64,000 nucleotides of DNA from an uncultured Gammaproteobacteria bacterium (GTDB taxonomy: Bacteria; Patescibacteriota; Microgenomatia; CAYQLK01): positions 3,494-67,493 of the forward strand of contig CAYOLO010000002.1 of assembly GCA_964404855.1 (NCBI GenBank), given 5' to 3'. Shown in pieces: positions 41,708 to 49,161 of the stretch (within the stretch, counting starts at the first letter, position 1; each line of letters begins with the position of its first letter). The translations under genes and the position numbers were made by a program. Below the pieces are notes generated by a model. It saw only the letters and a list, made by a program, of their open reading frames with translations. It was not told the origin of the DNA and made no database searches.

Positions 41708-42643
41708 TTATAGAATTGATCCCGAACTAATAAATGTAATTACAATGGCAAACAAGCTAAATACAAATAAATGAGCAAAATTGTGATGTAGCGCACGGTT
41801 TATTCTATTTCTGCGAACGTAGATGATATCAAGTGTAATTAATAGGACCAGTAGAGAAGAAATTATCAAGCTAACTGTTTTAATAATTAAATACGGATTG
41901 AGTGGATAATTTACCTGAACTTGCGACGCTTCTCCTTGGACTGCTTCTGTGCTTACCGGCGTTCCACCTGTTTCCGAGGTGTCTGAGTTAGTTGTCCCAA
42001 CTATTGTAGCTGATGAAGTAGCAGGTTGGCTGTTAGTTGTTTGGGCGGGTGTTGGTGTCTCAACTTGCTGAGCTGGAGCTGGATTGGCTGGAGAAGCAAA
42101 CATCTGCACAACTAAAGAACCGTTTACTCCATTGAGATTGCCTTCGGTTACAGCTACTCCTATTTCTGTAAAACTACCATCCAACAAATTTTGCTTATGT
42201 GAAGGCGAGTTCATCCAGGCAACAACTACAGAGTTTGCGTTGTCAAAATCCCTTGCTAAGTTTTCGCCGGCAACAGAATATTTATAACCAGACTGGCTAA
42301 TAAATTGCCAAGGAGTTTTTCCATCGGGAGCAAAATGAGCCCAGTAGTTTTGGTTTAACATGTCTTGAGCTTTGGCAGCAGCTGCTTGAGACAAAAGTTG
42401 GTTTTCTTTAACTGGTCGTACGCCTTGAGAAATTCTTCTTTCGTTAGTAAGGCTAATTATGTCTGTGGTAGAAATATTTGTTGAAATACCTAATACATTA
42501 GAACCAGGAATTGAAAATATTTTCAAAAATACTTGGAGGAGTATTAAAAAAATAACATATGAAAAAATCGCTGGTGCTTTTACAGCGTGAGCCCTATGAT
42601 TGTTCTTGTGGTGAGGTAAAAAAAACTTAACTATTGATGTCAT
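41708..42643 (-). CDS. CAP/SCP/PR-1 domain protein with Thr/Pro-rich stalk and C-terminal membrane anchor
   Basis: N-terminal TM/signal anchor. CAP domain motifs HFAPDGKTPWQFI...GENLARDF...VVVAWMNSPSHKQNLLDGSFTEIGVAV. Then a T/S/P-rich low-complexity region and a terminal TM helix. Confidence 0.7.
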   Translation of the reverse strand: MTSIVKFFLPHHKNNHRAHAVKAPAIFSYVIFLILLQVFLKIFSIPGSNVLGISTNISTTDIISLTNERRISQGVRPVKENQLLSQAAAAKAQDMLNQNYWAHFAPDGKTPWQFISQSGYKYSVAGENLARDFDNANSVVVAWMNSPSHKQNLLDGSFTEIGVAVTEGNLNGVNGSLVVQMFASPANPAPAQQVETPTPAQTTNSQPATSSATIVGTTNSDTSETGGTPVSTEAVQGEASQVQVNYPLNPYLIIKTVSLIISSLLVLLITLDIIYVRRNRINRALHHNFAHLFVFSLFAIVITFISSGSIL

Positions 42644-42963
42644 TAGGAATACTTTGAGTCTTCATACTTAACTTTAACATAGCTACCGACCTTAAGATTA
42701 TTGACAGGAATTTTTAAACTAAACGCCAATGCATTTGCAACTGAAACCCCAACTCTAGTACCAGTAAATGAGCCTGGACCTGAGTTGACAAAAATTCTGC
42801 CGACTTTTTTTATTGGAAATTTTTCAAAAATTTTATTCAAGTGCGGAATTAGTGTTTCCGATCCAACACCTTGAAAGGCTTGAGAAAAGACATTAGAACC
42901 ATCCTTTTCAAGGATTTTTATAATTGTCTGATTCGGTTTTATGGTGTCAATATATAGATCCAT
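42643..42963 (-). CDS. tsaB: tRNA t6A37 biosynthesis protein TsaB (YeaZ), N-terminal subdomain only (106 aa)
   Basis: VNSGPGSFTGTRVGVSVANALAFSL matches the TsaB GPGSFTG-R-G motif. The ORF stops after ~106 aa, where canonical TsaB is ~230 aa. Confidence 0.55.
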   Translation of the reverse strand: MDLYIDTIKPNQTIIKILEKDGSNVFSQAFQGVGSETLIPHLNKIFEKFPIKKVGRIFVNSGPGSFTGTRVGVSVANALAFSLKIPVNNLKVGSYVKVKYEDSKYS

Positions 42964-42965
42964 AA

Positions 42966-43550
42966 CTATATTTTAACTGCCCCATCTCTTAATATCACTA
43001 AGTTTTCGTTTTCAAAAGTTATGACAGTCGACTCTTTGCCAAACCCATCTACTGAGCTAAAAACAGCATCCACAAGTTTAAGAAGATTTGGATCAAGTTG
43101 AGAAATAGTTTGGGGTGGAGTTTGCCCCGCAAAATTGGCCGAGGGTCCAAGAATCGGCCTATCTAATATTTTTAGAACCTCCAATAATTTTTGATGATTA
43201 GGAATTCTAACCCCAACCTTTTTAGTTGTTGAGACAAAACTTTTATCTTCTATTTCTTTTTTGGCCGACAATACGACCGTCAGAGCACCTGGCCAATATT
43301 TATTCAATATTTTTTTTGCAGTAGGGTTAATGATTGCCAACTTATTTACCCAGCTGGTATTTGGAATAAGAAGTGAGGTTGGTTTATCAGGCAGGCGGTT
43401 TTTGATTGAGTAGAGTCTTTTGATTGCTTGATCATCATCATAAACACAACCTATTCCCCATACTGTATCAGTTGGAAAAATAACTATCCCCCCTTTTGCA
43501 AAAACCTTAGCTATGACCTGAGGATCACTCGATTGTAATAATTCTTTCAT
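42966..43550 (-). CDS. tsaC: L-threonylcarbamoyladenylate synthase, YrdC/TsaC type (single domain)
   Basis: VIFPTDTVWGIGCV...KNRLPDKPTSLLI...YWPGALTVVL...VGVRIPNH...LGPSANFAGQ are YrdC family blocks. 194 aa, no Sua5 C-terminal domain. Confidence 0.85.
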   Translation of the reverse strand: MKELLQSSDPQVIAKVFAKGGIVIFPTDTVWGIGCVYDDDQAIKRLYSIKNRLPDKPTSLLIPNTSWVNKLAIINPTAKKILNKYWPGALTVVLSAKKEIEDKSFVSTTKKVGVRIPNHQKLLEVLKILDRPILGPSANFAGQTPPQTISQLDPNLLKLVDAVFSSVDGFGKESTVITFENENLVILRDGAVKI

Positions 43551-43935
43551 TGTCTGATTTGGTTTTTAGAAATGTAATTTTTTTAGCAAAAATATTGTTT
43601 AAATTAGCTTTGTCTGGCCACTCAATAATAAATATTTTTTTAGGGTCCGATTCGATAATTTCTCTTACACCTAACATTTCAAACTGACTTGGATTCTCGA
43701 GTCTATATAGATCAAGATGATAAAGCCTGTCATAAATTTTGAGAAACACAAAAGTTGGGCTTGAAATTGTCCTAGTAATACCCAGACCTTTGGCGAAACC
43801 TCTAACAAACGCCGTTTTGCCCGCACCTAAATCGCCAGTTAGAAAAATAACTCCTCCAGAATATAAATACTCTTGAGCTAAATCTTGACCTATTTTTTCA
43901 GTTTCGATTTGATTTTTTGAGATAATTTGTTCCAT
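43525..43935 (-). CDS. tsaE: tRNA t6A37 ATPase TsaE (YjeE)
   Basis: IFLTGDLGAGKTAFVRGFAKGLGI...SPTFVFLKIY...LYHLDLYRL matches TsaE Walker A and signature blocks. Confidence 0.85.
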   Translation of the reverse strand: MEQIISKNQIETEKIGQDLAQEYLYSGGVIFLTGDLGAGKTAFVRGFAKGLGITRTISSPTFVFLKIYDRLYHLDLYRLENPSQFEMLGVREIIESDPKKIFIIEWPDKANLNNIFAKKITFLKTKSDNERIITIE

Positions 43936-44597: not shown

Positions 44598-45815
44598 CTA
44601 TACAATTTTTAGTATAGATTTAAGTTTTTTGAAGACTTTGCTCTTTTTTATTTTTTTATTTATCTTTTTTTTGTTAGAAAAATAAACTGTATGTACCAAA
44701 AAGCCTAATGTAATTAGAGCAGTTGAAATATAAAACGGAATAAAATTGTCTGTTTTTGTTATCTCTTCAACTTGATTTTGTTTTTTGACTGCCGAAGCTG
44801 AGGATGATGTTTTGGCTCCAAGAACTTTTTTAGGAGTAGGAGTTTTAGTTATTTTTGGCGTTGGCGTTGGTTTAGTAGTTGGAGTTGGTTTTACGGTCGG
44901 CGTAGCTGTAGGGGTTGGTGTAATAATTGCGACAATTGAGTTGACTTCACCAGGTGTAGGATCTGTAGTTTTTTGCCAATTACCAGAAGCGTCAATAGCA
45001 AATGAAACGCCTTTGGTGGAAGCTGGATATGAATAACTATTAATTACTTGATCATTGTATAAAATTCTTCCACTGTCTCCACCGTTGTTAAATATTGAAC
45101 TTGTGTAAAAGACAAAATATTGTAATGGTTCGAGCGTATACTTTGGCAAGTTATTTGGTTTTGAGCCACCATCAATATCATCGATTTGAAAATTGCTTAA
45201 TTCAATCGCAAGCTCCATAGGGTTGTAAATTTCTATCCATTCGTCGCCATCAAGAGGGTCGGGCAGAATTTCTGTAATTATTAAAGTGTTTACTGAAAAA
45301 TTTGTTTGATTTTGCGACCCTCCCACTGCTTGTGGGGTTGGTGTAGCAGTTACATCAGGACACGGTTCGCCACCGACAAAATTAAGTGAGTCTTTGGTGT
45401 TGTTTTCAAAAACTTTCCAACTATTTCCTCCATCAACTTCCAAACCCACTGACTGATTCTCCGATGAAGTAGTAACATCCGGCATGGGAATTGTAATTTG
45501 CGAATAAGGATCATTTGTATTTTCTGGGGAGAAAAGCCGAATACTGTCAGGAGTTGAATTGTTTAAAAATGTCATATCAAAAGATATAACCCCCCTGGGA
45601 GAAATCGAGCCAGATAAAGTTTTAAACTGACTTTCAGTCGAGTCTCTAACCTTCCAACCTTCTAAGCTAACACTGGTACACTCTGAATTGTATAACTCTA
45701 CCCAATCAGAGCTTGATTGGTAAGAAAATTCATTAATGAAAATTGAGGCAAAAGTGCCTGATGAATTGGTAACGGATAATATTATAGATAATAAAAAAGC
45801 TAAAAATATTTTCAC
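44598..45815 (-). CDS. Surface protein with two lamin-tail domains (LTD), Pro/Thr-rich stalk and C-terminal TM anchor
   Basis: FINEFSYQSSSDWVELYNSECTSVSLEGWKV and LIITEILPDPLDGDEWIEIYNPME match the LTD pattern (INE...DWVELYN...L.GW). PT-rich linker TPTPTATPTVKPTPTTKPTPTPKITKTPTPKK, then a TM helix and a K-rich tail. Apparent GTG start with a signal peptide. Confidence 0.65.
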   Translation of the reverse strand: MKIFLAFLLSIILSVTNSSGTFASIFINEFSYQSSSDWVELYNSECTSVSLEGWKVRDSTESQFKTLSGSISPRGVISFDMTFLNNSTPDSIRLFSPENTNDPYSQITIPMPDVTTSSENQSVGLEVDGGNSWKVFENNTKDSLNFVGGEPCPDVTATPTPQAVGGSQNQTNFSVNTLIITEILPDPLDGDEWIEIYNPMELAIELSNFQIDDIDGGSKPNNLPKYTLEPLQYFVFYTSSIFNNGGDSGRILYNDQVINSYSYPASTKGVSFAIDASGNWQKTTDPTPGEVNSIVAIITPTPTATPTVKPTPTTKPTPTPKITKTPTPKKVLGAKTSSSASAVKKQNQVEEITKTDNFIPFYISTALITLGFLVHTVYFSNKKKINKKIKKSKVFKKLKSILKIV

Positions 45816-45901
45816 TGCCCTTAATTAATTCTTTTAAGGCAGGAGACTAAAAATTTATCACTTTCGGGTTAGTTTCGCAATAGATAGTTTTTACTAGAAG
45901 A

Positions 45902-47059
45902 CTACTGCGGATAAATATGGAGATAATAGGTTTCTAATCCGTCATTGTGTACGACCTTGGCAAAAGTCAGAGTACCTGGGTAAGCTCCTCCGCAGGTATA
46001 AGACCCTCCGTATAATTTGCCTTCCTTAACGGCTTTAACTGTACTTCCTCCTCCGTCCATATCGATACCTGCGTGAACACCACCATTGTAGCGTTGTGCA
46101 TAATAATGTGAGCTCCCATAACCTTGGTTTATACTAATTGGATTATTAACCGGCCACTCAAATGGACCATCTGGATAGATAGTGCCATAATCGTCATACT
46201 TATCAGGTGGATAATTATAAGAGAAAGACGTTTTTTTTAGATAATTATTTGGATTCTCAACACTGCCGTTTTTATGAACTTCGAAATGAAGATGGGCTCC
46301 ACTAGAACAACCTGAGGCACCATTGATAATGTTTCCAATTGTGTCTCCAGTTTTGACATCTCTAATCAAAGTAAGCTTTCCATAAGAAATGGCTGCCTGT
46401 TCAGCTCGAGCTTGAGCAAGCTGGGCTTGATAGGTTCGCTCGTCGTTTTTGGTGATGACCAAAAGACTCTCTTTTTCTTTTTTCTGTCGAGTCAGAGTCG
46501 ACTGAAGTGCATCTAGTGAAACCTTAAGCTTTTCTGCCTCAAGCTTTTTGTCTTCTAAGGTTTCTTTTTGATTGGTGTAGGAGCTTTTGGTGGTTTGGAG
46601 TTGGCCAAGAATTTTACGGTCGCTTTGTTGGATGGTTTTGAGGTATTTGTAACGCGCTAGAAGCTTGCCAAAGTCGTTACTTGAGAGGAATAGGTCCAAT
46701 GGCGAGATACGGCCATTCTTGTACGTGTTAGTGATGCGAATGAGGACTTTATCTGACTGTGTTGTTAAAGTCCCTCTAATCCTATCAATACGGCCTCCTA
46801 GTACACCGATTTCTTCCTCTAGCTTGGCTAGGTCTAATTCAGTCTGGGCGATTCTTAGTGTAGTCAACTCAACTTGATCATCAAGTTTAGTAATTTCACT
46901 TTTTAGGCTTTTGGCCATTGTTTGTGTTTGGGCTAGCTTTTGCTCTAACTCCTCAATTTTGGATTTATCTGCATCAACGATAGTTACCGGAAAAAGACCC
47001 AGCAGCAAGACAAACACCAAGCAAACTTGAATTATTTTAGTAAGGTTAAAAATTTTCAT
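45902..47059 (-). CDS. Coiled-coil peptidase M23 family protein (EnvC/PcsB-like, putative FtsEX-regulated peptidoglycan hydrolase)
   Basis: Signal peptide, ~200 aa heptad-rich coiled coil, then M23 motifs GASGCSSGAHLHFEVHKNGSVENP and later YNGGVHAGIDMDGG...TYYLH. Lies immediately downstream of ftsE-ftsX. Confidence 0.75.
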   Translation of the reverse strand: MKIFNLTKIIQVCLVFVLLLGLFPVTIVDADKSKIEELEQKLAQTQTMAKSLKSEITKLDDQVELTTLRIAQTELDLAKLEEEIGVLGGRIDRIRGTLTTQSDKVLIRITNTYKNGRISPLDLFLSSNDFGKLLARYKYLKTIQQSDRKILGQLQTTKSSYTNQKETLEDKKLEAEKLKVSLDALQSTLTRQKKEKESLLVITKNDERTYQAQLAQARAEQAAISYGKLTLIRDVKTGDTIGNIINGASGCSSGAHLHFEVHKNGSVENPNNYLKKTSFSYNYPPDKYDDYGTIYPDGPFEWPVNNPISINQGYGSSHYYAQRYNGGVHAGIDMDGGGSTVKAVKEGKLYGGSYTCGGAYPGTLTFAKVVHNDGLETYYLHIYPQ

Positions 47060-47133: not shown

Positions 47134-48003
47134 TTAGATTCGCAAATATCTTCTTAGAGAAATTTGCGCCCCGATTGCTCCAATTAATGCACCAGCTAAT
47201 GATTGGCCGCCAATTAGTAGTAAAAATACACTAATTGGAATTGGAAAAATAGGAATTCCTGTAAAAAATGGTGAAATTTCTGGAGAGAAATACAAAACAA
47301 GCATAGTAATAACAAGGCTAGAAATCAACGCACCTACAACACCATAAAGAATACCTTCAAAAATAAATGGTGCTTTAATATACCAATTCGAGGCACCAAT
47401 TAGCCTCATAATTTTGATTTCCTCTCTTCTGATGGCAATTCTCATACCAATAACCATAAAAACAATTAATACTGAAACAGTAGTTAAAAACGCCACGAGC
47501 GCTACACCGCCGACTCTTAAAATTCTGGTCCAATTGGTTAATTTTTCAACCACATCCTTTTGGTATACAACCTCATCAATTATTTCTTCTTTTACCAGTA
47601 TCTCTGAAATTTTTTCTAAGTCGGATGCGTTGTATGTTGAAATATCTAAGGATGCAGGAAGAATGTTGGCCGTAACCAACTCAAGAAGGAGTGGATCGTT
47701 TTTGTTTTGATCTTGATAGATTTTTAAGGCGTCTTCTTTGGAAATGAACTTAACTTCGCTGGTTAGATTCGTGTCAGTTATGGTTTTTTGTAAAGCAAAT
47801 ATCTGATCATTTTGTGCAGTATCTTTAAAAAAGGCTGAAATCTGAGGTCTTGCTTCGAAATATTTAATTACCTCATTACTTCCGACAGCCACCAGAACGA
47901 ACAGTCCAGAGATAAAAAAGGTGGCAGCCATAACAACAAAAGCTGCTAGAGCTTGGTATGGTGATCTGCGAATATATCTTGCGGTAGTTTTAATCTTTGC
48001 CAT
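47134..48003 (-). CDS. ftsX: Cell-division ABC transporter permease FtsX
   Basis: 289 aa. N-terminal cytoplasmic RRSPYQALAAFVVMAATFFISGLF, one extracellular domain, and a C-terminal 3-TM bundle, which is FtsX topology. Follows ftsE with overlap. Confidence 0.8.
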   Translation of the reverse strand: MAKIKTTARYIRRSPYQALAAFVVMAATFFISGLFVLVAVGSNEVIKYFEARPQISAFFKDTAQNDQIFALQKTITDTNLTSEVKFISKEDALKIYQDQNKNDPLLLELVTANILPASLDISTYNASDLEKISEILVKEEIIDEVVYQKDVVEKLTNWTRILRVGGVALVAFLTTVSVLIVFMVIGMRIAIRREEIKIMRLIGASNWYIKAPFIFEGILYGVVGALISSLVITMLVLYFSPEISPFFTGIPIFPIPISVFLLLIGGQSLAGALIGAIGAQISLRRYLRI

Positions 48004-48691
48004 ATTTACCTTTGTTTTTGTCTGATAATATTTTGCCTTTTTCTAAGTGAATCACACGCCTTTGACGTTTATCAACAATTGGGACGTCGTGTGTCGCTAC
48101 GATCACTGTTGTTCCGAGCTCTTTATTAATGTTTTCGAGCAAATCGATAATAAGATCTGAATTACCAGGATCGAGATCACCAGTTGGTTCATCGGCGAGT
48201 AGTATTGATGGCTTGGCAATAATTGCCCTAGCAATACTGGTCCTTTGGACTTCACCGCCAGATAATTGAGAAGGGAAATGCTTAGCCTTGTCTGCGATCC
48301 CGACCATATCCAAGGTTTCCATGACTTGCTGTCTAATTTTGGAGTCTTTTTCTCCAATAACTTGAAGAGCAATTGCCACATTCTCAGCAACAGTTCGATC
48401 GTTTAACAGTTTGAAATCTTGAAAGACCATACCAATATCTCGTCTTAGTTTGGGAACTTTTGATCTTTTGAGCTTAGATAGATTAAAATCGTTGACTTTA
48501 ATCTCGCCCGAAGAAAAATTTAGCTCTTTGTTGATTAACTTAAGAATCGTCGATTTACCTGCACCTGACTTGCCTATCAGGAAAACGAAATCTTTGTCGG
48601 GTATTTCGAGTGTGATTTCCTCAAGCCCAATTGAACCATCAGGGAATTTTTTACTAACTTGGTCAAAAATAATCATAAAGGCAGTTAACAA
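47990..48691 (-). CDS. ftsE: Cell-division ABC transporter ATP-binding protein FtsE
   Basis: Walker A GKSGAGKST, signature LSGGEVQRTSIARAI, Walker B ILLADEPTGDLD. The true start is probably the internal MIIFDQVSKKF. Confidence 0.85.
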   Translation of the reverse strand: MLTAFMIIFDQVSKKFPDGSIGLEEITLEIPDKDFVFLIGKSGAGKSTILKLINKELNFSSGEIKVNDFNLSKLKRSKVPKLRRDIGMVFQDFKLLNDRTVAENVAIALQVIGEKDSKIRQQVMETLDMVGIADKAKHFPSQLSGGEVQRTSIARAIIAKPSILLADEPTGDLDPGNSDLIIDLLENINKELGTTVIVATHDVPIVDKRQRRVIHLEKGKILSDKNKGKYGKD

Positions 48692-48753: not shown

Positions 48754-49161
48754 TTACTGCGAAGCCTCAACTCGACCAACATCCATAAGCCATCCGACCT
48801 GACTTGAAGAGAAGGTCTCCCCATAGACGGTAACTTTTTGCCCAACATATTCATTGAGATCTAATACCGAGGATGTAAGGTATGCAGTTTGACTTTCATC
48901 ACCTCGGATTAGTTTGTGAGTACCACTCGCAAAATTTTCCCCATCAGACACATCGTTTTTCTCAATTACACCTTCGGCTTTATCTCGAAAAGAAGCTGCG
49001 TCTTTTTGTTGAACTTGTTCAGTATGTTCAGATACAGACCCCTCTTCCTTTGCGGAAAGCGAAGAAGCAGATTTGGATGGTGTTGCTTGAGCGAGAACAA
49101 ATCCTGTGCCAACTCCAAGGATTATTGAGATAATAGGAACGATAATGAATGCGAGTTTCAT
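48754..49161 (-). CDS. Small secreted/anchored hypothetical protein
   Basis: 135 aa. N-terminal signal/TM segment MKLAFIIVPIISIILGVGTGFVLAQA, then an acidic Ser-rich region. No known motif. Confidence 0.4.
   Translation of the reverse strand: MKLAFIIVPIISIILGVGTGFVLAQATPSKSASSLSAKEEGSVSEHTEQVQQKDAASFRDKAEGVIEKNDVSDGENFASGTHKLIRGDESQTAYLTSSVLDLNEYVGQKVTVYGETFSSSQVGWLMDVGRVEASQ

What the first reader, a model, noticed from the sequence alone, without database searches (positions are those of the whole stretch)
45902..47059. FtsEX-coupled coiled-coil M23 peptidase whose catalytic motifs appear circularly permuted
Arrangement: ftsE -> ftsX -> this gene, the classic EnvC/PcsB/RipC arrangement of an FtsEX-activated hydrolase. 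The protein has a signal peptide, a ~200-aa coiled coil and an M23 region. However, the segment that is normally C-terminal in M23 (TGDTIGNIINGASGCSSGAHLHFEVHKNGSVENP, the G-x-[ST]-G-x-[ST]-G-x-HLHFE block) comes first. About 50 residues later comes the normally N-terminal block (PISINQGYG...YNGGVHAGIDMDGGGSTVKAVKEGKL...TYYLH, the H-x-G-I-D zinc-ligand block and Y-x-H-L block). The protein ends there. This order is the reverse of LytM/lysostaphin and suggests a circular permutation of the domain, or two partial degenerate copies. I am not aware of a described permuted M23, so this is worth structural verification.
Basis: seen in the sequence. Interest (0 to 1): 0.6.

Follow-up and report, generated by a model that had tools for sequence, protein, structure and literature searches.

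The report
Circularly permuted M23 peptidase beside FtsEX
A cell-wall-cutting enzyme encoded next to the cell-division genes ftsE and ftsX has the two halves of its catalytic (M23) domain in swapped order along the chain, and a large group of uncultured ultra-small (CPR) bacteria share this rearrangement, which I could not find described for this enzyme family.

Summary
The 385-aa ORF at 45902-47059 (minus strand) lies directly downstream of ftsE-ftsX. It has a signal peptide or membrane anchor, an EnvC/PcsB-type coiled-coil hairpin (aa 29-224) and one M23 domain whose halves are swapped. Residues 230-275 match the C-terminal third of M23 (HxH); residues 300-385 match the N-terminal two-thirds (HxxxD...YxH).

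- **Permutation test:** re-joining the halves in silico turns two out-of-order profile hits (E about 1e-21 each) into one collinear 116-column match (E 2.4e-41). It also gives single-stretch matches to the sequences of solved lysostaphin and LytM structures.
- **Fold:** AlphaFold2 folds the region as one compact domain (pLDDT 94).
- **Catalytic residues:** all five are conserved, and a cysteine pair linking the two halves covaries.
- **Distribution:** the same order, the same cut point (mostly 2-4 residues after the catalytic His) and the prfB-orf-ftsE-ftsX-M23 gene order recur in 80 inspected Microgenomates/WWE3 genomes. Parcubacterial relatives keep the canonical order.
- **Literature:** no paper in the searched library describes a permuted M23.

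Verdict: a genuine, ancient circular permutation, and a new variant of a known kind.

The parts
45902..47059 (-). Whole gene: 385-aa coiled-coil protein carrying a circularly permuted M23 domain (stop codon included)
   Evidence: ORF list. Pfam Peptidase_M23 scores 37.2 bits against a cut-off of 28.7, but only through partial stretches.
46970..47059 (-). aa 1-30: N-terminal signal peptide or membrane anchor (MKIFNLTKIIQVCLVFVLLLGLFPVTIVDA)
   Evidence: Hydrophobic helix 2-20 in the AF2 model. The sequence was read directly. The cleavage site is inferred.
46388..46975 (-). aa 29-224: antiparallel coiled-coil hairpin (helices 29-115 and 130-224, with short helix 120-126 at the tip), homologous to the FtsX-binding domain of EnvC/PcsB/RipC
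   Evidence: phmmer to EnvC, query 35-224 to EnvC 47-236. Profile E 3.2e-13 to 8hd0_E. Foldseek top hits are 8tzl_E, 6tpi_A, 6ewy, 4cgk and 8idc_E. Secondary structure.
46616..46756 (-). aa 102-148: hairpin tip, the predicted FtsX-binding region
   Evidence: Aligns with EnvC 114-160, which holds the two FtsX-binding sites 114-127 and 142-160 (alignment; sites from PMC7668044). Pfam CC_PcsB hits aa 108-160. Binding itself is inferred.
46235..46372 (-). aa 230-275, block A: the part that is C-terminal in canonical M23 (V-x-x-G-D...G-x-x-G-C-S-S-G-x-HLHFE...NP-x-x-YL)
   Evidence: Pfam model positions 62-96 of 96. Aligns to lysostaphin 89-137. hhalign to canonical template 99-140.
46286..46294 (-). 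H256-L-H258: the HxH motif. By homology to LytM, H258 is a zinc ligand and H256 is catalytic.
   Evidence: Invariant in a 59-sequence alignment. Translation checked. The residue roles come from knowledge of LytM and lysostaphin.
46163..46234 (-). aa 276-299: conserved Tyr-rich connector that joins the ancestral C-terminus to the ancestral N-terminus. It has no counterpart in canonical M23.
   Evidence: Falls between the two hhalign hits. pLDDT is 95-98, with a strand and a short helix. G292, P296 and G298 are invariant. Length varies from 5 to 31 residues across the family.
45905..46162 (-). aa 300-385, block B: the part that is N-terminal in canonical M23 (WP...NQGYG...HAGID...VKAVKEGKL...YYLH). 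The protein ends 4 residues after the catalytic His.
   Evidence: Aligns to lysostaphin 16-84. hhalign to canonical template 16-92. HMM positions 9-90.
46061..46075 (-). H329-A-G-I-D333: the HxxxD zinc-ligand motif
   Evidence: Invariant. Translation checked.
45917..45919 (-). H381: catalytic histidine of the Y-x-H strand, which is now the last strand of the protein
   Evidence: His in 288 of 288 permuted sequences, although it was not used to select them. 275 of 288 proteins end 2-4 residues after it.
46307..46309 (-). C251: first half of a covarying cysteine pair (in block A)
   Evidence: Invariant with C356 in the 59-sequence alignment. Across 288 sequences: 253 Cys/Cys, 30 neither, 5 mixed. 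A disulfide is inferred.
45992..45994 (-). C356: second half of the covarying cysteine pair (in block B)
47134..48003 (-). ftsX (289 aa), 74 bp upstream of the peptidase gene
   Evidence: Pfam FtsX_ECD 5.1e-15 and FtsX 2.1e-10. No convincing terminator in the gap.
47990..48691 (-). ftsE (233 aa), overlapping ftsX by 14 bp
   Evidence: Pfam ABC_tran 3.7e-33.

Best explanation
The gene encodes an exported protein built like EnvC or PcsB: an N-terminal signal or anchor, a long coiled-coil hairpin, then a catalytic domain.

The catalytic domain is one complete M23 (LytM/lysostaphin-type) zinc peptidase domain in a circularly permuted chain order. The chain path is:
1. It enters the domain at the strand that normally follows the Y-x-H catalytic histidine.
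2. It runs through the G-x-x-G...HxH block to the ancestral C-terminus.
3. It crosses a conserved 24-residue Tyr-rich connector to the ancestral N-terminus.
4. It runs through WP...HxxxD...Y-x-H and stops 4 residues after that histidine.

The order of the blocks is shown. The rest is inferred:
- All five catalytic residues (H329, D333, H381, H256, H258) are retained, so the protein is most likely an active peptidoglycan endopeptidase rather than an EnvC-type inactive activator.
- The gene always follows ftsE-ftsX and the hairpin is homologous to the FtsX-binding hairpins of EnvC, PcsB and RipC. So the enzyme is most likely held and switched by the FtsEX ATPase at the division septum and cuts peptide cross-links so that daughter cells can separate.
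- The permutation is old, probably arose once, and most plausibly came from a tandem duplication of the domain followed by loss of the outer halves. It is fixed in the Microgenomates/WWE3 part of the Candidate Phyla Radiation.
For: **Order of blocks:**. The de-permuted profile matches 24 sequences of solved M23 structures (E up to 1e-5), 22 of them through one reported collinear stretch. Examples are lysostaphin 17-139 (E 6.7e-15) and LytM 2b0p 21-133 (E 4e-7).

**One compact domain:** AF2 pLDDT 93.8 and pTM 0.90 for aa 222-385.

**Catalytic residues:** invariant in 59 diverse homologues. H381 is His in 288 of 288.

**Contact between the two blocks:** the Cys251/Cys356 pair covaries, with 253 both, 30 neither and 5 mixed.

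**Fixed cut point:** 275 of 288 proteins end 2-4 residues after the catalytic His.

**Conservation:**
- 120 of 120 best hits are permuted.
- 93 of the best 150 clusters at 50% identity are permuted.
- 80 inspected species-representative genomes carry it, among at least 320 tblastn-confirmed relatives. Named ones are Curtiss-, Levy-, Gottesman-, Woese-, Ames-, Collier- and Roizmanbacteria and WWE3.

**Gene order:** prfB - small ORF - ftsE - ftsX - peptidase occurs in every locus with enough flank.

**Coiled coil:** homologous to EnvC. The full-length model is closest to EnvC in FtsEX complexes, and also to RipA, PcsB and RipC.

**Probably a single origin:** 83 of 84 permuted cores fall in one clan of a neighbour-joining tree that contains no canonical sequence.

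**Duplication route is plausible:** natural tandem M23 proteins exist, and the permuted query aligns collinearly across their repeat junction (P0207, P0219, P0238, P0253). In a short-linker subfamily only 5-7 residues join the ancestral termini, so those termini must lie close together.
Against: **No direct 3-D comparison with a solved M23 structure:**
- Foldseek with the confident domain model found no M23 chain in the PDB (best E 0.86) and only weak hits in BFVD.
- I attribute this to Foldseek depending on chain order, but that is my reasoning, not a test.
- Model coordinates cannot be read, so the zinc-site geometry was not checked.

**Activity, zinc binding and FtsX binding are inferred only.**

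**The full-length model is uncertain:**
- The relative position of the two domains is not reliable (pTM 0.49).
- Confidence is low at the base of the hairpin and at the junction (pLDDT 56-66 for aa 201-230).

**The ancestral state of this locus is unknown.** The canonical-order coiled-coil M23 genes of Parcubacteria (P0368, P0370) lie after gltX, not after ftsX.

**No direct evolutionary intermediate was found** (a coiled coil followed by tandem M23 domains).
Confidence: 0.75

Rival explanations
1. The protein is a non-catalytic activator like E. coli EnvC. Its M23-like domain would bind and switch on separate amidases instead of cutting peptidoglycan itself.
For: - NCBI names several homologues 'murein hydrolase activator EnvC family protein'.
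- The coiled coil is homologous to that of EnvC.
- The gene order matches that of envC-type systems.
Against: - EnvC's LytM domain lacks the catalytic residues (PMC7668044). Here all five are invariant across very divergent homologues, which is hard to explain without catalysis.
- The 57-residue restraining arm of EnvC (residues 222-278) is absent. Only 5 residues separate helix II from the first strand.
- The NCBIfam EnvC model scores 40.8 bits against a cut-off of 270.
- No amidase gene is visible in the window, but the rest of the genome was not seen.
Confidence: 0.1
2. The enzyme is mainly a weapon or docking tool used against the cell wall of a host bacterium, since CPR bacteria are often episymbionts. 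It would not be a housekeeping division hydrolase.
For: - Between this window and its closest relative (L008), flanking genes are about 90-97% identical in DNA but the catalytic-domain segment is only 62-64%.
- At conserved amino acids, codons are identical only 41% of the time in that segment against 75-83% in the flanking housekeeping genes prfB, ftsE, ftsX, tsaE and sua5. This is the pattern of an exchanged or fast-turning-over surface module.
- The permuted domain also occurs at the end of very large secreted proteins and fused to a nuclease domain (P0184, P0266, P0267).
Against: - The strict prfB-orf-ftsE-ftsX-peptidase gene order across about 70 loci at only 32-50% protein identity points to a core division function.
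- The architecture is that of the known FtsEX-controlled division hydrolases.
- The local divergence was seen in one pair of genomes only.
Confidence: 0.1
3. The region holds two partial, decayed M23 copies (the remains of a tandem) that do not form one functional domain.
For: - Pfam reports only partial matches to its model.
- Tandem M23 proteins exist in nature.
- Foldseek did not recognise the model as M23.
Against: - The two blocks are complementary and do not overlap (template positions 16-92 and 99-140 of 141). Their scores add up to that of one full domain: 126 + 121 against 236 after re-joining.
- Every motif is present once and is invariant.
- AF2 gives one compact domain at pLDDT 94.
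- The arrangement is under strong purifying selection across hundreds of genomes.
Confidence: 0.03
4. The swapped order is an artefact of assembly, a frameshift or ORF calling in this one contig.
For: None found.
Against: - It is a single uninterrupted ORF.
- The same order occurs in 120 of 120 best homologues from NCBI, ENA, JGI and Logan assemblies and in 80 genome loci.
Confidence: 0.01

Closest known systems
EnvC (E. coli / V. cholerae murein hydrolase activator; PDB 6tpi, 8hd0, 8tzl)
   Same: - It has a signal peptide, a homologous coiled-coil hairpin (query 35-224 aligns with EnvC 47-236) and a C-terminal M23/LytM-type domain.
- It is encoded with, or acts with, FtsEX.
- It is the best structural match of the full-length model.
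   Different: - EnvC's LytM domain is in canonical order and catalytically dead; it activates amidases.
- A 57-residue 'restraining arm' helix blocks its groove (PMC7668044).
- Here the domain is permuted, keeps all catalytic residues, and follows the coiled coil after 5 residues with no arm.
PcsB (S. pneumoniae), RipC/RipA (mycobacteria), CwlO (B. subtilis): FtsEX-controlled hydrolases
   Same: - A coiled-coil hairpin is followed by a domain that cuts peptidoglycan itself. This is the working model I propose here.
- Foldseek hits 4cgk, 8idc_E, 6ewy and 9hmx.
- Pfam CC_PcsB hits aa 108-160.
   Different: - Their catalytic domains are CHAP or NlpC/P60 cysteine peptidases, not M23 zinc peptidases.
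- None of them is reported as permuted in this context.
LytM / lysostaphin catalytic domains (PDB 2b0p, 4qp5): canonical M23
   Same: - The same motifs are present (HxxxD, Y-x-H, HxH, G-x-x-G-x-S-T-G).
- After in-silico re-joining, the whole domain aligns collinearly.
   Different: - The chain order differs. The canonical order is HxxxD ... YxH ... HxH; here it is HxH ... connector ... HxxxD ... YxH-end.
- There is an extra conserved Tyr-rich connector.
- There is an extra covarying cysteine pair.
Coiled-coil M23 proteins of Parcubacteria (P0368 'Candidatus Moranbacteria', P0370 'Candidatus Paceibacterota')
   Same: - They are CPR proteins of the same length and architecture, matching over 90-91% of the length of the permuted relative P0254 used as query.
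- Their catalytic motifs are intact.
   Different: - They have the canonical motif order.
- They are encoded after gltX and not next to ftsEX.
Circularly permuted NlpC/P60 families (YaeF/poxvirus G6R and LRAT-like)
   Same: They are a precedent for a natural circular permutation of the catalytic domain within a cell-wall hydrolase superfamily (PMC6403190).
   Different: They have a different fold and chemistry (papain-like Cys peptidase). They are unrelated to M23.
Barrel-sandwich hybrid ('HABAS') domain topologies
   Same: M23 is listed among domains of this fold class, whose topological variants are related by circular permutation (PMC11515920). The fold therefore tolerates permutation.
   Different: That paper compares distant superfamily members (NusG, RNAP insertions). 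It does not describe an M23 peptidase with permuted catalytic motifs.

Membership tests
Peptidase family M23 (Pfam PF01551; LytM/lysostaphin type) | HxxxD zinc-ligand motif | tested here: met
   H329-A-G-I-D333 is invariant in 59 homologues. Translation checked.
Peptidase family M23 (Pfam PF01551; LytM/lysostaphin type) | HxH motif (third zinc ligand plus a catalytic His) | tested here: met
   H256-L-H258 is invariant.
Peptidase family M23 (Pfam PF01551; LytM/lysostaphin type) | Catalytic His in the Y-x-H strand | tested here: met
   H381 is His in 288 of 288 sequences, and this residue was not used to select them.
Peptidase family M23 (Pfam PF01551; LytM/lysostaphin type) | Score above Pfam's gathering threshold | tested here: met
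   37.2 bits against a cut-off of 28.7, reached only by adding two partial stretches. The best stretch covers model positions 62-96 of 96.
Peptidase family M23 (Pfam PF01551; LytM/lysostaphin type) | Motif order along the chain: HxxxD, then YxH, then HxH (collinear with the family model) | tested here: not met
   The order here is HxH (256), HxxxD (329), YxH (381). This is shown. It is the one defining feature that fails, and the failure is by circular permutation.
Peptidase family M23 (Pfam PF01551; LytM/lysostaphin type) | M23 three-dimensional fold with the three ligands around one zinc | tested here: inconclusive
Peptidase family M23 (Pfam PF01551; LytM/lysostaphin type) | Zinc-dependent cleavage of peptidoglycan peptides | not testable with these tools
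   Needs purified protein.
EnvC (murein hydrolase activator; NCBIfam NF008644) | Coiled-coil hairpin homologous to EnvC's FtsX-binding domain | tested here: met
   Profile E 3.2e-13 to 8hd0_E over positions 21-226. Foldseek E 1.2e-5 to 8tzl_E.
EnvC (murein hydrolase activator; NCBIfam NF008644) | Score above the NCBIfam equivalog cut-off | tested here: not met
   40.8 bits against a cut-off of 270, and the match covers the coiled coil only.
EnvC (murein hydrolase activator; NCBIfam NF008644) | Degenerate LytM domain without catalytic residues | tested here: not met
   All five catalytic residues are present and conserved. The EnvC feature is taken from PMC7668044.
EnvC (murein hydrolase activator; NCBIfam NF008644) | Restraining-arm helix (EnvC 222-278) between the coiled coil and the LytM domain | tested here: not met
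   Helix II ends at aa 224 and the first strand starts at aa 230. Query residue 224 aligns with EnvC 236.
EnvC (murein hydrolase activator; NCBIfam NF008644) | Works with FtsEX | tested here: inconclusive
   Adjacency to ftsE-ftsX is met here and in all loci with enough flank. Physical interaction is not testable here.
PcsB/CwlO/RipC-type FtsEX-activated hydrolases | PcsB-type coiled-coil domain (Pfam PF24568) | tested here: inconclusive
   25.8 bits against a cut-off of 27 in this protein. The family is listed in the precomputed hits of most homologues.
PcsB/CwlO/RipC-type FtsEX-activated hydrolases | Catalytic domain of the CHAP or NlpC/P60 type | tested here: not met
   The only catalytic domain found is M23.

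The most novel reading that the evidence does not exclude
The permutation may be more than a neutral rearrangement: it may rewire how FtsEX controls the enzyme.
- The chain ends now sit at the hairpin next to the catalytic His381. The FtsEX-driven coiled coil is therefore fused, with no restraining arm, directly to the strand that pairs with the catalytic-histidine strand.
- ATP-driven movement of the coiled coil could then switch catalysis by assembling or distorting the active site itself, rather than by unplugging a blocked groove as in EnvC.
- The free four-residue C-terminal tail and the Tyr-rich connector could act as the latch.
Probability: 0.2. Interest if true: 0.8.

Novelty: new variant of a known kind. 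Interest (0 to 1): 0.58.

Why it matters
M23/LytM peptidases are among the best-studied cell-wall enzymes. They include lysostaphin and the division regulators EnvC, NlpD and DipM. The 2022 family review I searched does not contain the string "permut" at all.

Why a natural, ancient and strictly conserved permutation matters:
- **Fold tolerance.** It shows the fold tolerates moving its chain ends to the catalytic hairpin. That is useful for engineering lysostaphin-type enzybiotics and for fusing domains at new positions.
- **FtsEX signalling.** It provides a natural experiment on how FtsEX transmits force, because the lever is attached at a different point and the known autoinhibitory arm is missing.
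- **Annotation.** It explains why this core division protein of Microgenomates/WWE3 is only weakly and partially recognised by Pfam ('faint' precomputed hits). It also explains the inconsistent names: EnvC activator, CwlO-like, hypothetical.
- **Evolutionary marker.** It gives a clean shared derived character for a large part of the CPR radiation.

Tried and rejected
**Structure searches that gave nothing useful**
- Foldseek of the domain model against the PDB found no M23 hit; the best E was 0.86 and the hits were noise.
- Against viral structures there were only two weak hits: an unnamed entry, A0A510E7V3_3 (E 4e-3), and a cyanophage internal virion protein (E 1.4e-2).
- I do not read this as evidence against the fold. 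Foldseek alignment is order-dependent, and its structural alphabet uses the sequence separation of spatial neighbours (my knowledge of the method).
- I tried to fold an in-silico de-permuted alignment (A2) so that Foldseek could recognise it.
- Model coordinates are not exposed to the script tool, so zinc-site and Cys-Cys distances could not be measured.

**Searches for origin and spread**
- Tandem M23 proteins exist, but they carry BlaR1/M56 or no extra domain, never the coiled coil. P0242 ('CNC') is just a truncated tandem. No evolutionary intermediate was found.
- A search with the LysM-linked permuted protein P0220 returned only canonical-order M23 proteins. That variant remains a singleton, and I cannot say whether the permutation exists outside CPR.
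- The canonical-order Parcubacterial relatives are not at the ftsEX locus, so no in-place ancestor was identified.
- The exact-sequence look-up of the window protein's contig failed. Cluster look-ups gave no organism names.

**Other negatives**
- Literature searches for permut* with M23, LytM, lysostaphin, EnvC, FtsEX or PcsB found only the NlpC/P60 permutation and fold-level remarks.
- The promoter and terminator scan of the operon found no more sites than shuffled sequence gives.
Full report
**1. What is at the coordinates**

The finding corresponds to one uninterrupted ORF, 45902..47059 on the minus strand. It starts with ATG and encodes 385 aa.

Immediately upstream on the same strand lie ftsX (47134..48003; Pfam FtsX_ECD 5e-15, FtsX 2e-10) and ftsE (47990..48691; ABC_tran 4e-33). 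The gap between ftsX and the peptidase gene is 74 bp and has no convincing terminator. All three genes are probably co-transcribed; this is an inference.

The window has about 29-40% G+C. 53 of its 54 ORFs of at least 150 aa are on one strand. The closest named homologues come from Gottesman-, Curtiss- and Levybacteria. The organism is therefore an unnamed member of the Microgenomates group of the Candidate Phyla Radiation (CPR).

**2. Is the swapped order real?**

Yes, by four independent sequence tests.

- **Pfam.** Pfam's M23 model matches only partially; its best stretch is model positions 62-96 at aa 234-270.
- **Comparison with solved structures' sequences.** phmmer aligns lysostaphin residues 16-84 to query 311-382, and lysostaphin 89-137 to query 235-275. 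A 59-sequence family profile gives the same picture.
- **Re-joining the halves.** I joined aa 296-385 to aa 234-295 in silico. The Smith-Waterman score against lysostaphin rose from 81 (z = 7 against shuffles) to 146 (z = 17). The artificial junction YYLHIYPQ|DVKTGD aligned without a gap to lysostaphin's WYMHLSKYNVKVGD.
- **Profile against profile.** I used 288 permuted sequences against 61 canonical M23 domains. The native order gives two out-of-order hits (query 2-45 to template 99-140, E 1.1e-21; query 66-153 to template 16-92, E 8.2e-21). The de-permuted alignment gives one hit of 116 columns, E 2.4e-41. Its score (236) is about the sum of the two partial scores.

The de-permuted profile also matches 24 sequences of solved M23 structures (E up to 1e-5), 22 of them through one reported collinear stretch. 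These include lysostaphin 17-139 (E 6.7e-15) and LytM 2b0p 21-133 (E 4e-7).

The two blocks are complementary and non-overlapping, and each motif occurs once. This is a clean circular permutation, not two decayed copies. A canonical-M23 HMM finds no other M23 gene in the window.

**3. Anatomy**

- **aa 1-30:** hydrophobic signal peptide or anchor.
- **aa 29-224:** two long antiparallel helices (29-115 and 130-224) with a short helix at the tip.
- **aa 225-229:** a five-residue junction.
- **aa 230-275 (block A):** the ancestral C-terminal third, containing G-C-S-S-G-A-H256-L-H258-F-E and NP-x-x-YL.
- **aa 276-299:** a Tyr-rich connector with no counterpart in canonical M23. It is nevertheless conserved (G292, P296 and G298 invariant) and confidently modelled.
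- **aa 300-385 (block B):** the ancestral N-terminal two-thirds, containing W302-P303, N-Q-G-Y-G, H329-x-x-x-D333 and Y379-x-H381.

AlphaFold2 with a 59-sequence alignment folds aa 222-385 as one compact all-beta domain (mean pLDDT 93.8, pTM 0.90).

H256, H258, H329, D333 and H381 are invariant in the 59-sequence alignment. H381 is histidine in 288 of 288 sequences, although it was not used to select them.

Two cysteines, one in each block (C251, C356), covary almost perfectly: 253 sequences have both, 30 have neither and 5 are mixed. This fits a contact, probably a disulfide, between the blocks; that is an inference.

The cut point is fixed: 275 of 288 proteins end 2-4 residues after the catalytic histidine. 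The connector varies from 5 to 31 residues. In a short-linker subfamily, 5-7 residues are enough to join the ancestral ends, so those ends must lie close together in the fold.

**4. What could not be shown**

- Foldseek with the confident domain model found no M23 chain in the PDB (best E 0.86) and only two weak hits among viral models.
- Model coordinates are not readable.

I attribute the Foldseek result to its dependence on chain order (my knowledge of the method), but this remains untested. The 3-D identity with M23 therefore rests on sequence homology plus a confident single-domain model, not on a superposition.

**5. Distribution and history**

- All 120 best database hits have HxH before HxxxD.
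- In an exhaustive HMMER search of 1.84 billion cluster representatives, 93 of the best 150 clusters at 50% identity are permuted. They are typically about 390-aa proteins matched in a single stretch at their C-terminus. Canonical M23 proteins appear only below E of about 1e-9, as two-stretch matches.
- A scan of one genome per species found at least 320 relatives. The 80 loci fetched all match collinearly. Those carrying organism names are Curtiss-, Levy-, Gottesman-, Woese-, Ames-, Collier- and Roizmanbacteria, WWE3, and two MAGs labelled Paceibacterota.
- The gene order prfB - small ORF - ftsE - ftsX - peptidase is present in every locus with enough flank, down to 32% protein identity.
- More distant permuted subfamilies (P0221, P0254, P0252, P0208, P0250) share the same architecture and the same C-terminal ...Y-[WL]-H-x-[QKR] end.
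- In contrast, coiled-coil M23 proteins labelled Moranbacteria and Paceibacterota (P0368, P0370, P0372) have the canonical order. They sit after gltX, not after ftsX.
- In a rough neighbour-joining tree of re-joined cores, 83 of 84 permuted sequences form one clan with no canonical member. This fits a single origin.
- Natural tandem M23 proteins exist, and the permuted query aligns collinearly across their repeat junction (P0207, P0219, P0238, P0253). The textbook route of duplication followed by trimming of the outer halves is therefore plausible. No intermediate carrying the coiled coil was found.
- The permuted domain has also been recruited into other proteins: two LysM repeats (P0220), a nuclease-family domain (P0266), and very large proteins (P0184, P0267).

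**6. How it most likely works**

*Shown.* The N-terminal hairpin is homologous to EnvC's: query 35-224 aligns with EnvC 47-236, with profile E 3e-13. The full-length model is closest to EnvC in FtsEX-EnvC complexes (8tzl_E, 6tpi_A). It is also close to the RipA N-domain, PcsB, and RipC in FtsEX-RipC.

*Inferred.*
- The hairpin tip (aa 102-148, equivalent to the EnvC FtsX-binding sites 114-127 and 142-160; PMC7668044) binds the FtsX extracellular domain.
- FtsE ATPase cycles move the coiled coil.
- The M23 domain, which keeps every catalytic residue, cuts peptide cross-links in septal peptidoglycan. In this it resembles the directly acting PcsB/RipC/CwlO systems, not the inactive activator EnvC.

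*How it differs from EnvC.* The 57-residue restraining arm that plugs EnvC's groove (residues 222-278) has no room here. Helix II ends at 224 and the first strand starts at 230.

Because of the permutation, the coiled coil is attached to the strand that in canonical M23 immediately follows the catalytic Y-x-H strand. The other end of that hairpin is now the free C-terminus. Control by FtsEX, if it exists, must therefore use a different route. It could act directly on the active-site hairpin, or it could use the Tyr-rich connector or the C-terminal tail as a latch. This is speculation.

The base of the hairpin and the junction are modelled with low confidence (pLDDT 55-69 for aa 21-50 and 56-66 for aa 201-230). 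That is compatible with a mobile switch region but proves nothing.

**7. Comparison with what is known**

The protein passes the motif and score criteria of family M23. It fails one defining feature, the order of the motifs along the chain.

It is not an EnvC equivalog:
- NCBIfam scores 40.8 bits against a cut-off of 270.
- The catalytic residues are intact.
- There is no restraining arm.

It works most like PcsB, RipC or CwlO but with a different catalytic fold.

Circular permutation has a precedent in cell-wall hydrolases only for NlpC/P60 families (PMC6403190). Permuted topologies have been noted for the wider barrel-sandwich hybrid fold class that includes M23 (PMC11515920).

Searches combining permut* with M23, LytM, lysostaphin, EnvC, FtsEX or PcsB found no description of a permuted M23. 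The 2022 M23 family review does not contain the string 'permut'. The library covers open-access papers and bioRxiv only, so an earlier mention elsewhere cannot be excluded.

Database names for these proteins are inconsistent: 'EnvC family', 'CwlO-like', 'DD-metalloendopeptidase', 'hypothetical'.

**8. Verdict**

It is a new variant of a known kind: the enzyme family and the FtsEX-hydrolase arrangement are known, but the permuted topology and the missing restraining arm are, as far as I could find, not described.

I score interest at 0.58.
- In favour: this is a clear and surprising structural-evolution finding in a well-studied family. It is fixed in a major bacterial radiation and bears directly on how FtsEX transmits its signal.
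- Against: function and regulation are still inferred, and the decisive 3-D superposition is a simple computation that remains to be done.

Noticed in passing
window 45900-46450 compared with locus L008 (CAYQLK010000001.1): Against the closest relative, DNA identity is about 0.90-0.97 over 8.4 kb but drops to 0.62-0.64 exactly over the permuted catalytic domain. At conserved amino acids only 41% of codons are identical there, against 75-83% in the flanking housekeeping genes prfB, ftsE, ftsX, tsaE and sua5. This suggests the segment was replaced by recombination with a more distant allele, not merely that it evolves fast.
   Followed up: partly
window 48754-49161 (minus strand): A 135-aa ORF with an N-terminal membrane helix and no Pfam match sits between prfB and ftsE. 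It is conserved at that position in nearly all of the 80 related loci. It could be an undescribed partner of FtsEX in these bacteria.
   Followed up: partly
window 44598-45815 (minus strand): The gene directly downstream encodes a 405-aa surface-type protein. It has a signal peptide, two lamin-tail (LTD) domains (4e-25), a Pro/Thr-rich spacer and a C-terminal membrane helix. An LTD protein follows the peptidase in about a quarter of related loci.
   Followed up: partly
window 14000-37500: This is a low-G+C block (0.29-0.32 against 0.35-0.39 elsewhere). It is packed with paralogous membrane glycosyltransferases of the PMT_2 type (at least five), a YfhO-like protein, a PTPS-related membrane protein and a polysaccharide flippase. 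It looks like a large surface-glycan or protein-glycosylation island.
   Followed up: partly
whole window: 53 of the 54 ORFs of at least 150 aa are on the minus strand. There are no tRNA genes and no Rfam match at gathering score in 64 kb.
   Followed up: no
window 42643-43935 (minus strand): Three small genes of the t6A tRNA-modification pathway lie just downstream: a TsaE-like gene (43525-43935), a Sua5/YrdC-like gene (42966-43550) and a short 106-aa TsaB-like gene (42643-42963). The same set follows the peptidase/LTD genes in locus L001 (Pfam labels; window ORFs).
   Followed up: no
proteins P0360 and P0361: These are EnvC-like coiled-coil proteins of similar length whose C-terminal domain is a PF13529 (C39-like cysteine peptidase) domain instead of M23. 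The catalytic module on this scaffold has therefore been swapped more than once.
   Followed up: no
proteins P0220, P0266/P0271, P0184, P0267: The permuted M23 domain also occurs outside the coiled-coil architecture. It is found after two LysM repeats (380 aa), after an endonuclease/exonuclease/phosphatase domain (894 aa, with a 2492-aa cluster member), and at the end of 1256-aa and 2174-aa proteins. A follow-up search with the LysM form found only canonical-order relatives.
   Followed up: partly
loci L003-L082, record titles: Many of the third-party MAG records that carry this CPR-type operon are titled 'uncultured Gammaproteobacteria bacterium'. One of them (L008) is 88.5% identical in DNA to this window over 8.4 kb. 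The titles look like placeholder or wrong taxonomy.
   Followed up: no
PDB 9m7n_A 'Gp16' and BFVD L0CQF1: A 915-aa phage protein Gp16 has a canonical M23 domain at residues 775-910 that is among the closest solved relatives of the re-joined domain (E 8.8e-12). A Synechococcus phage P60 internal virion protein was one of the two weak Foldseek hits for the native model.
   Followed up: no
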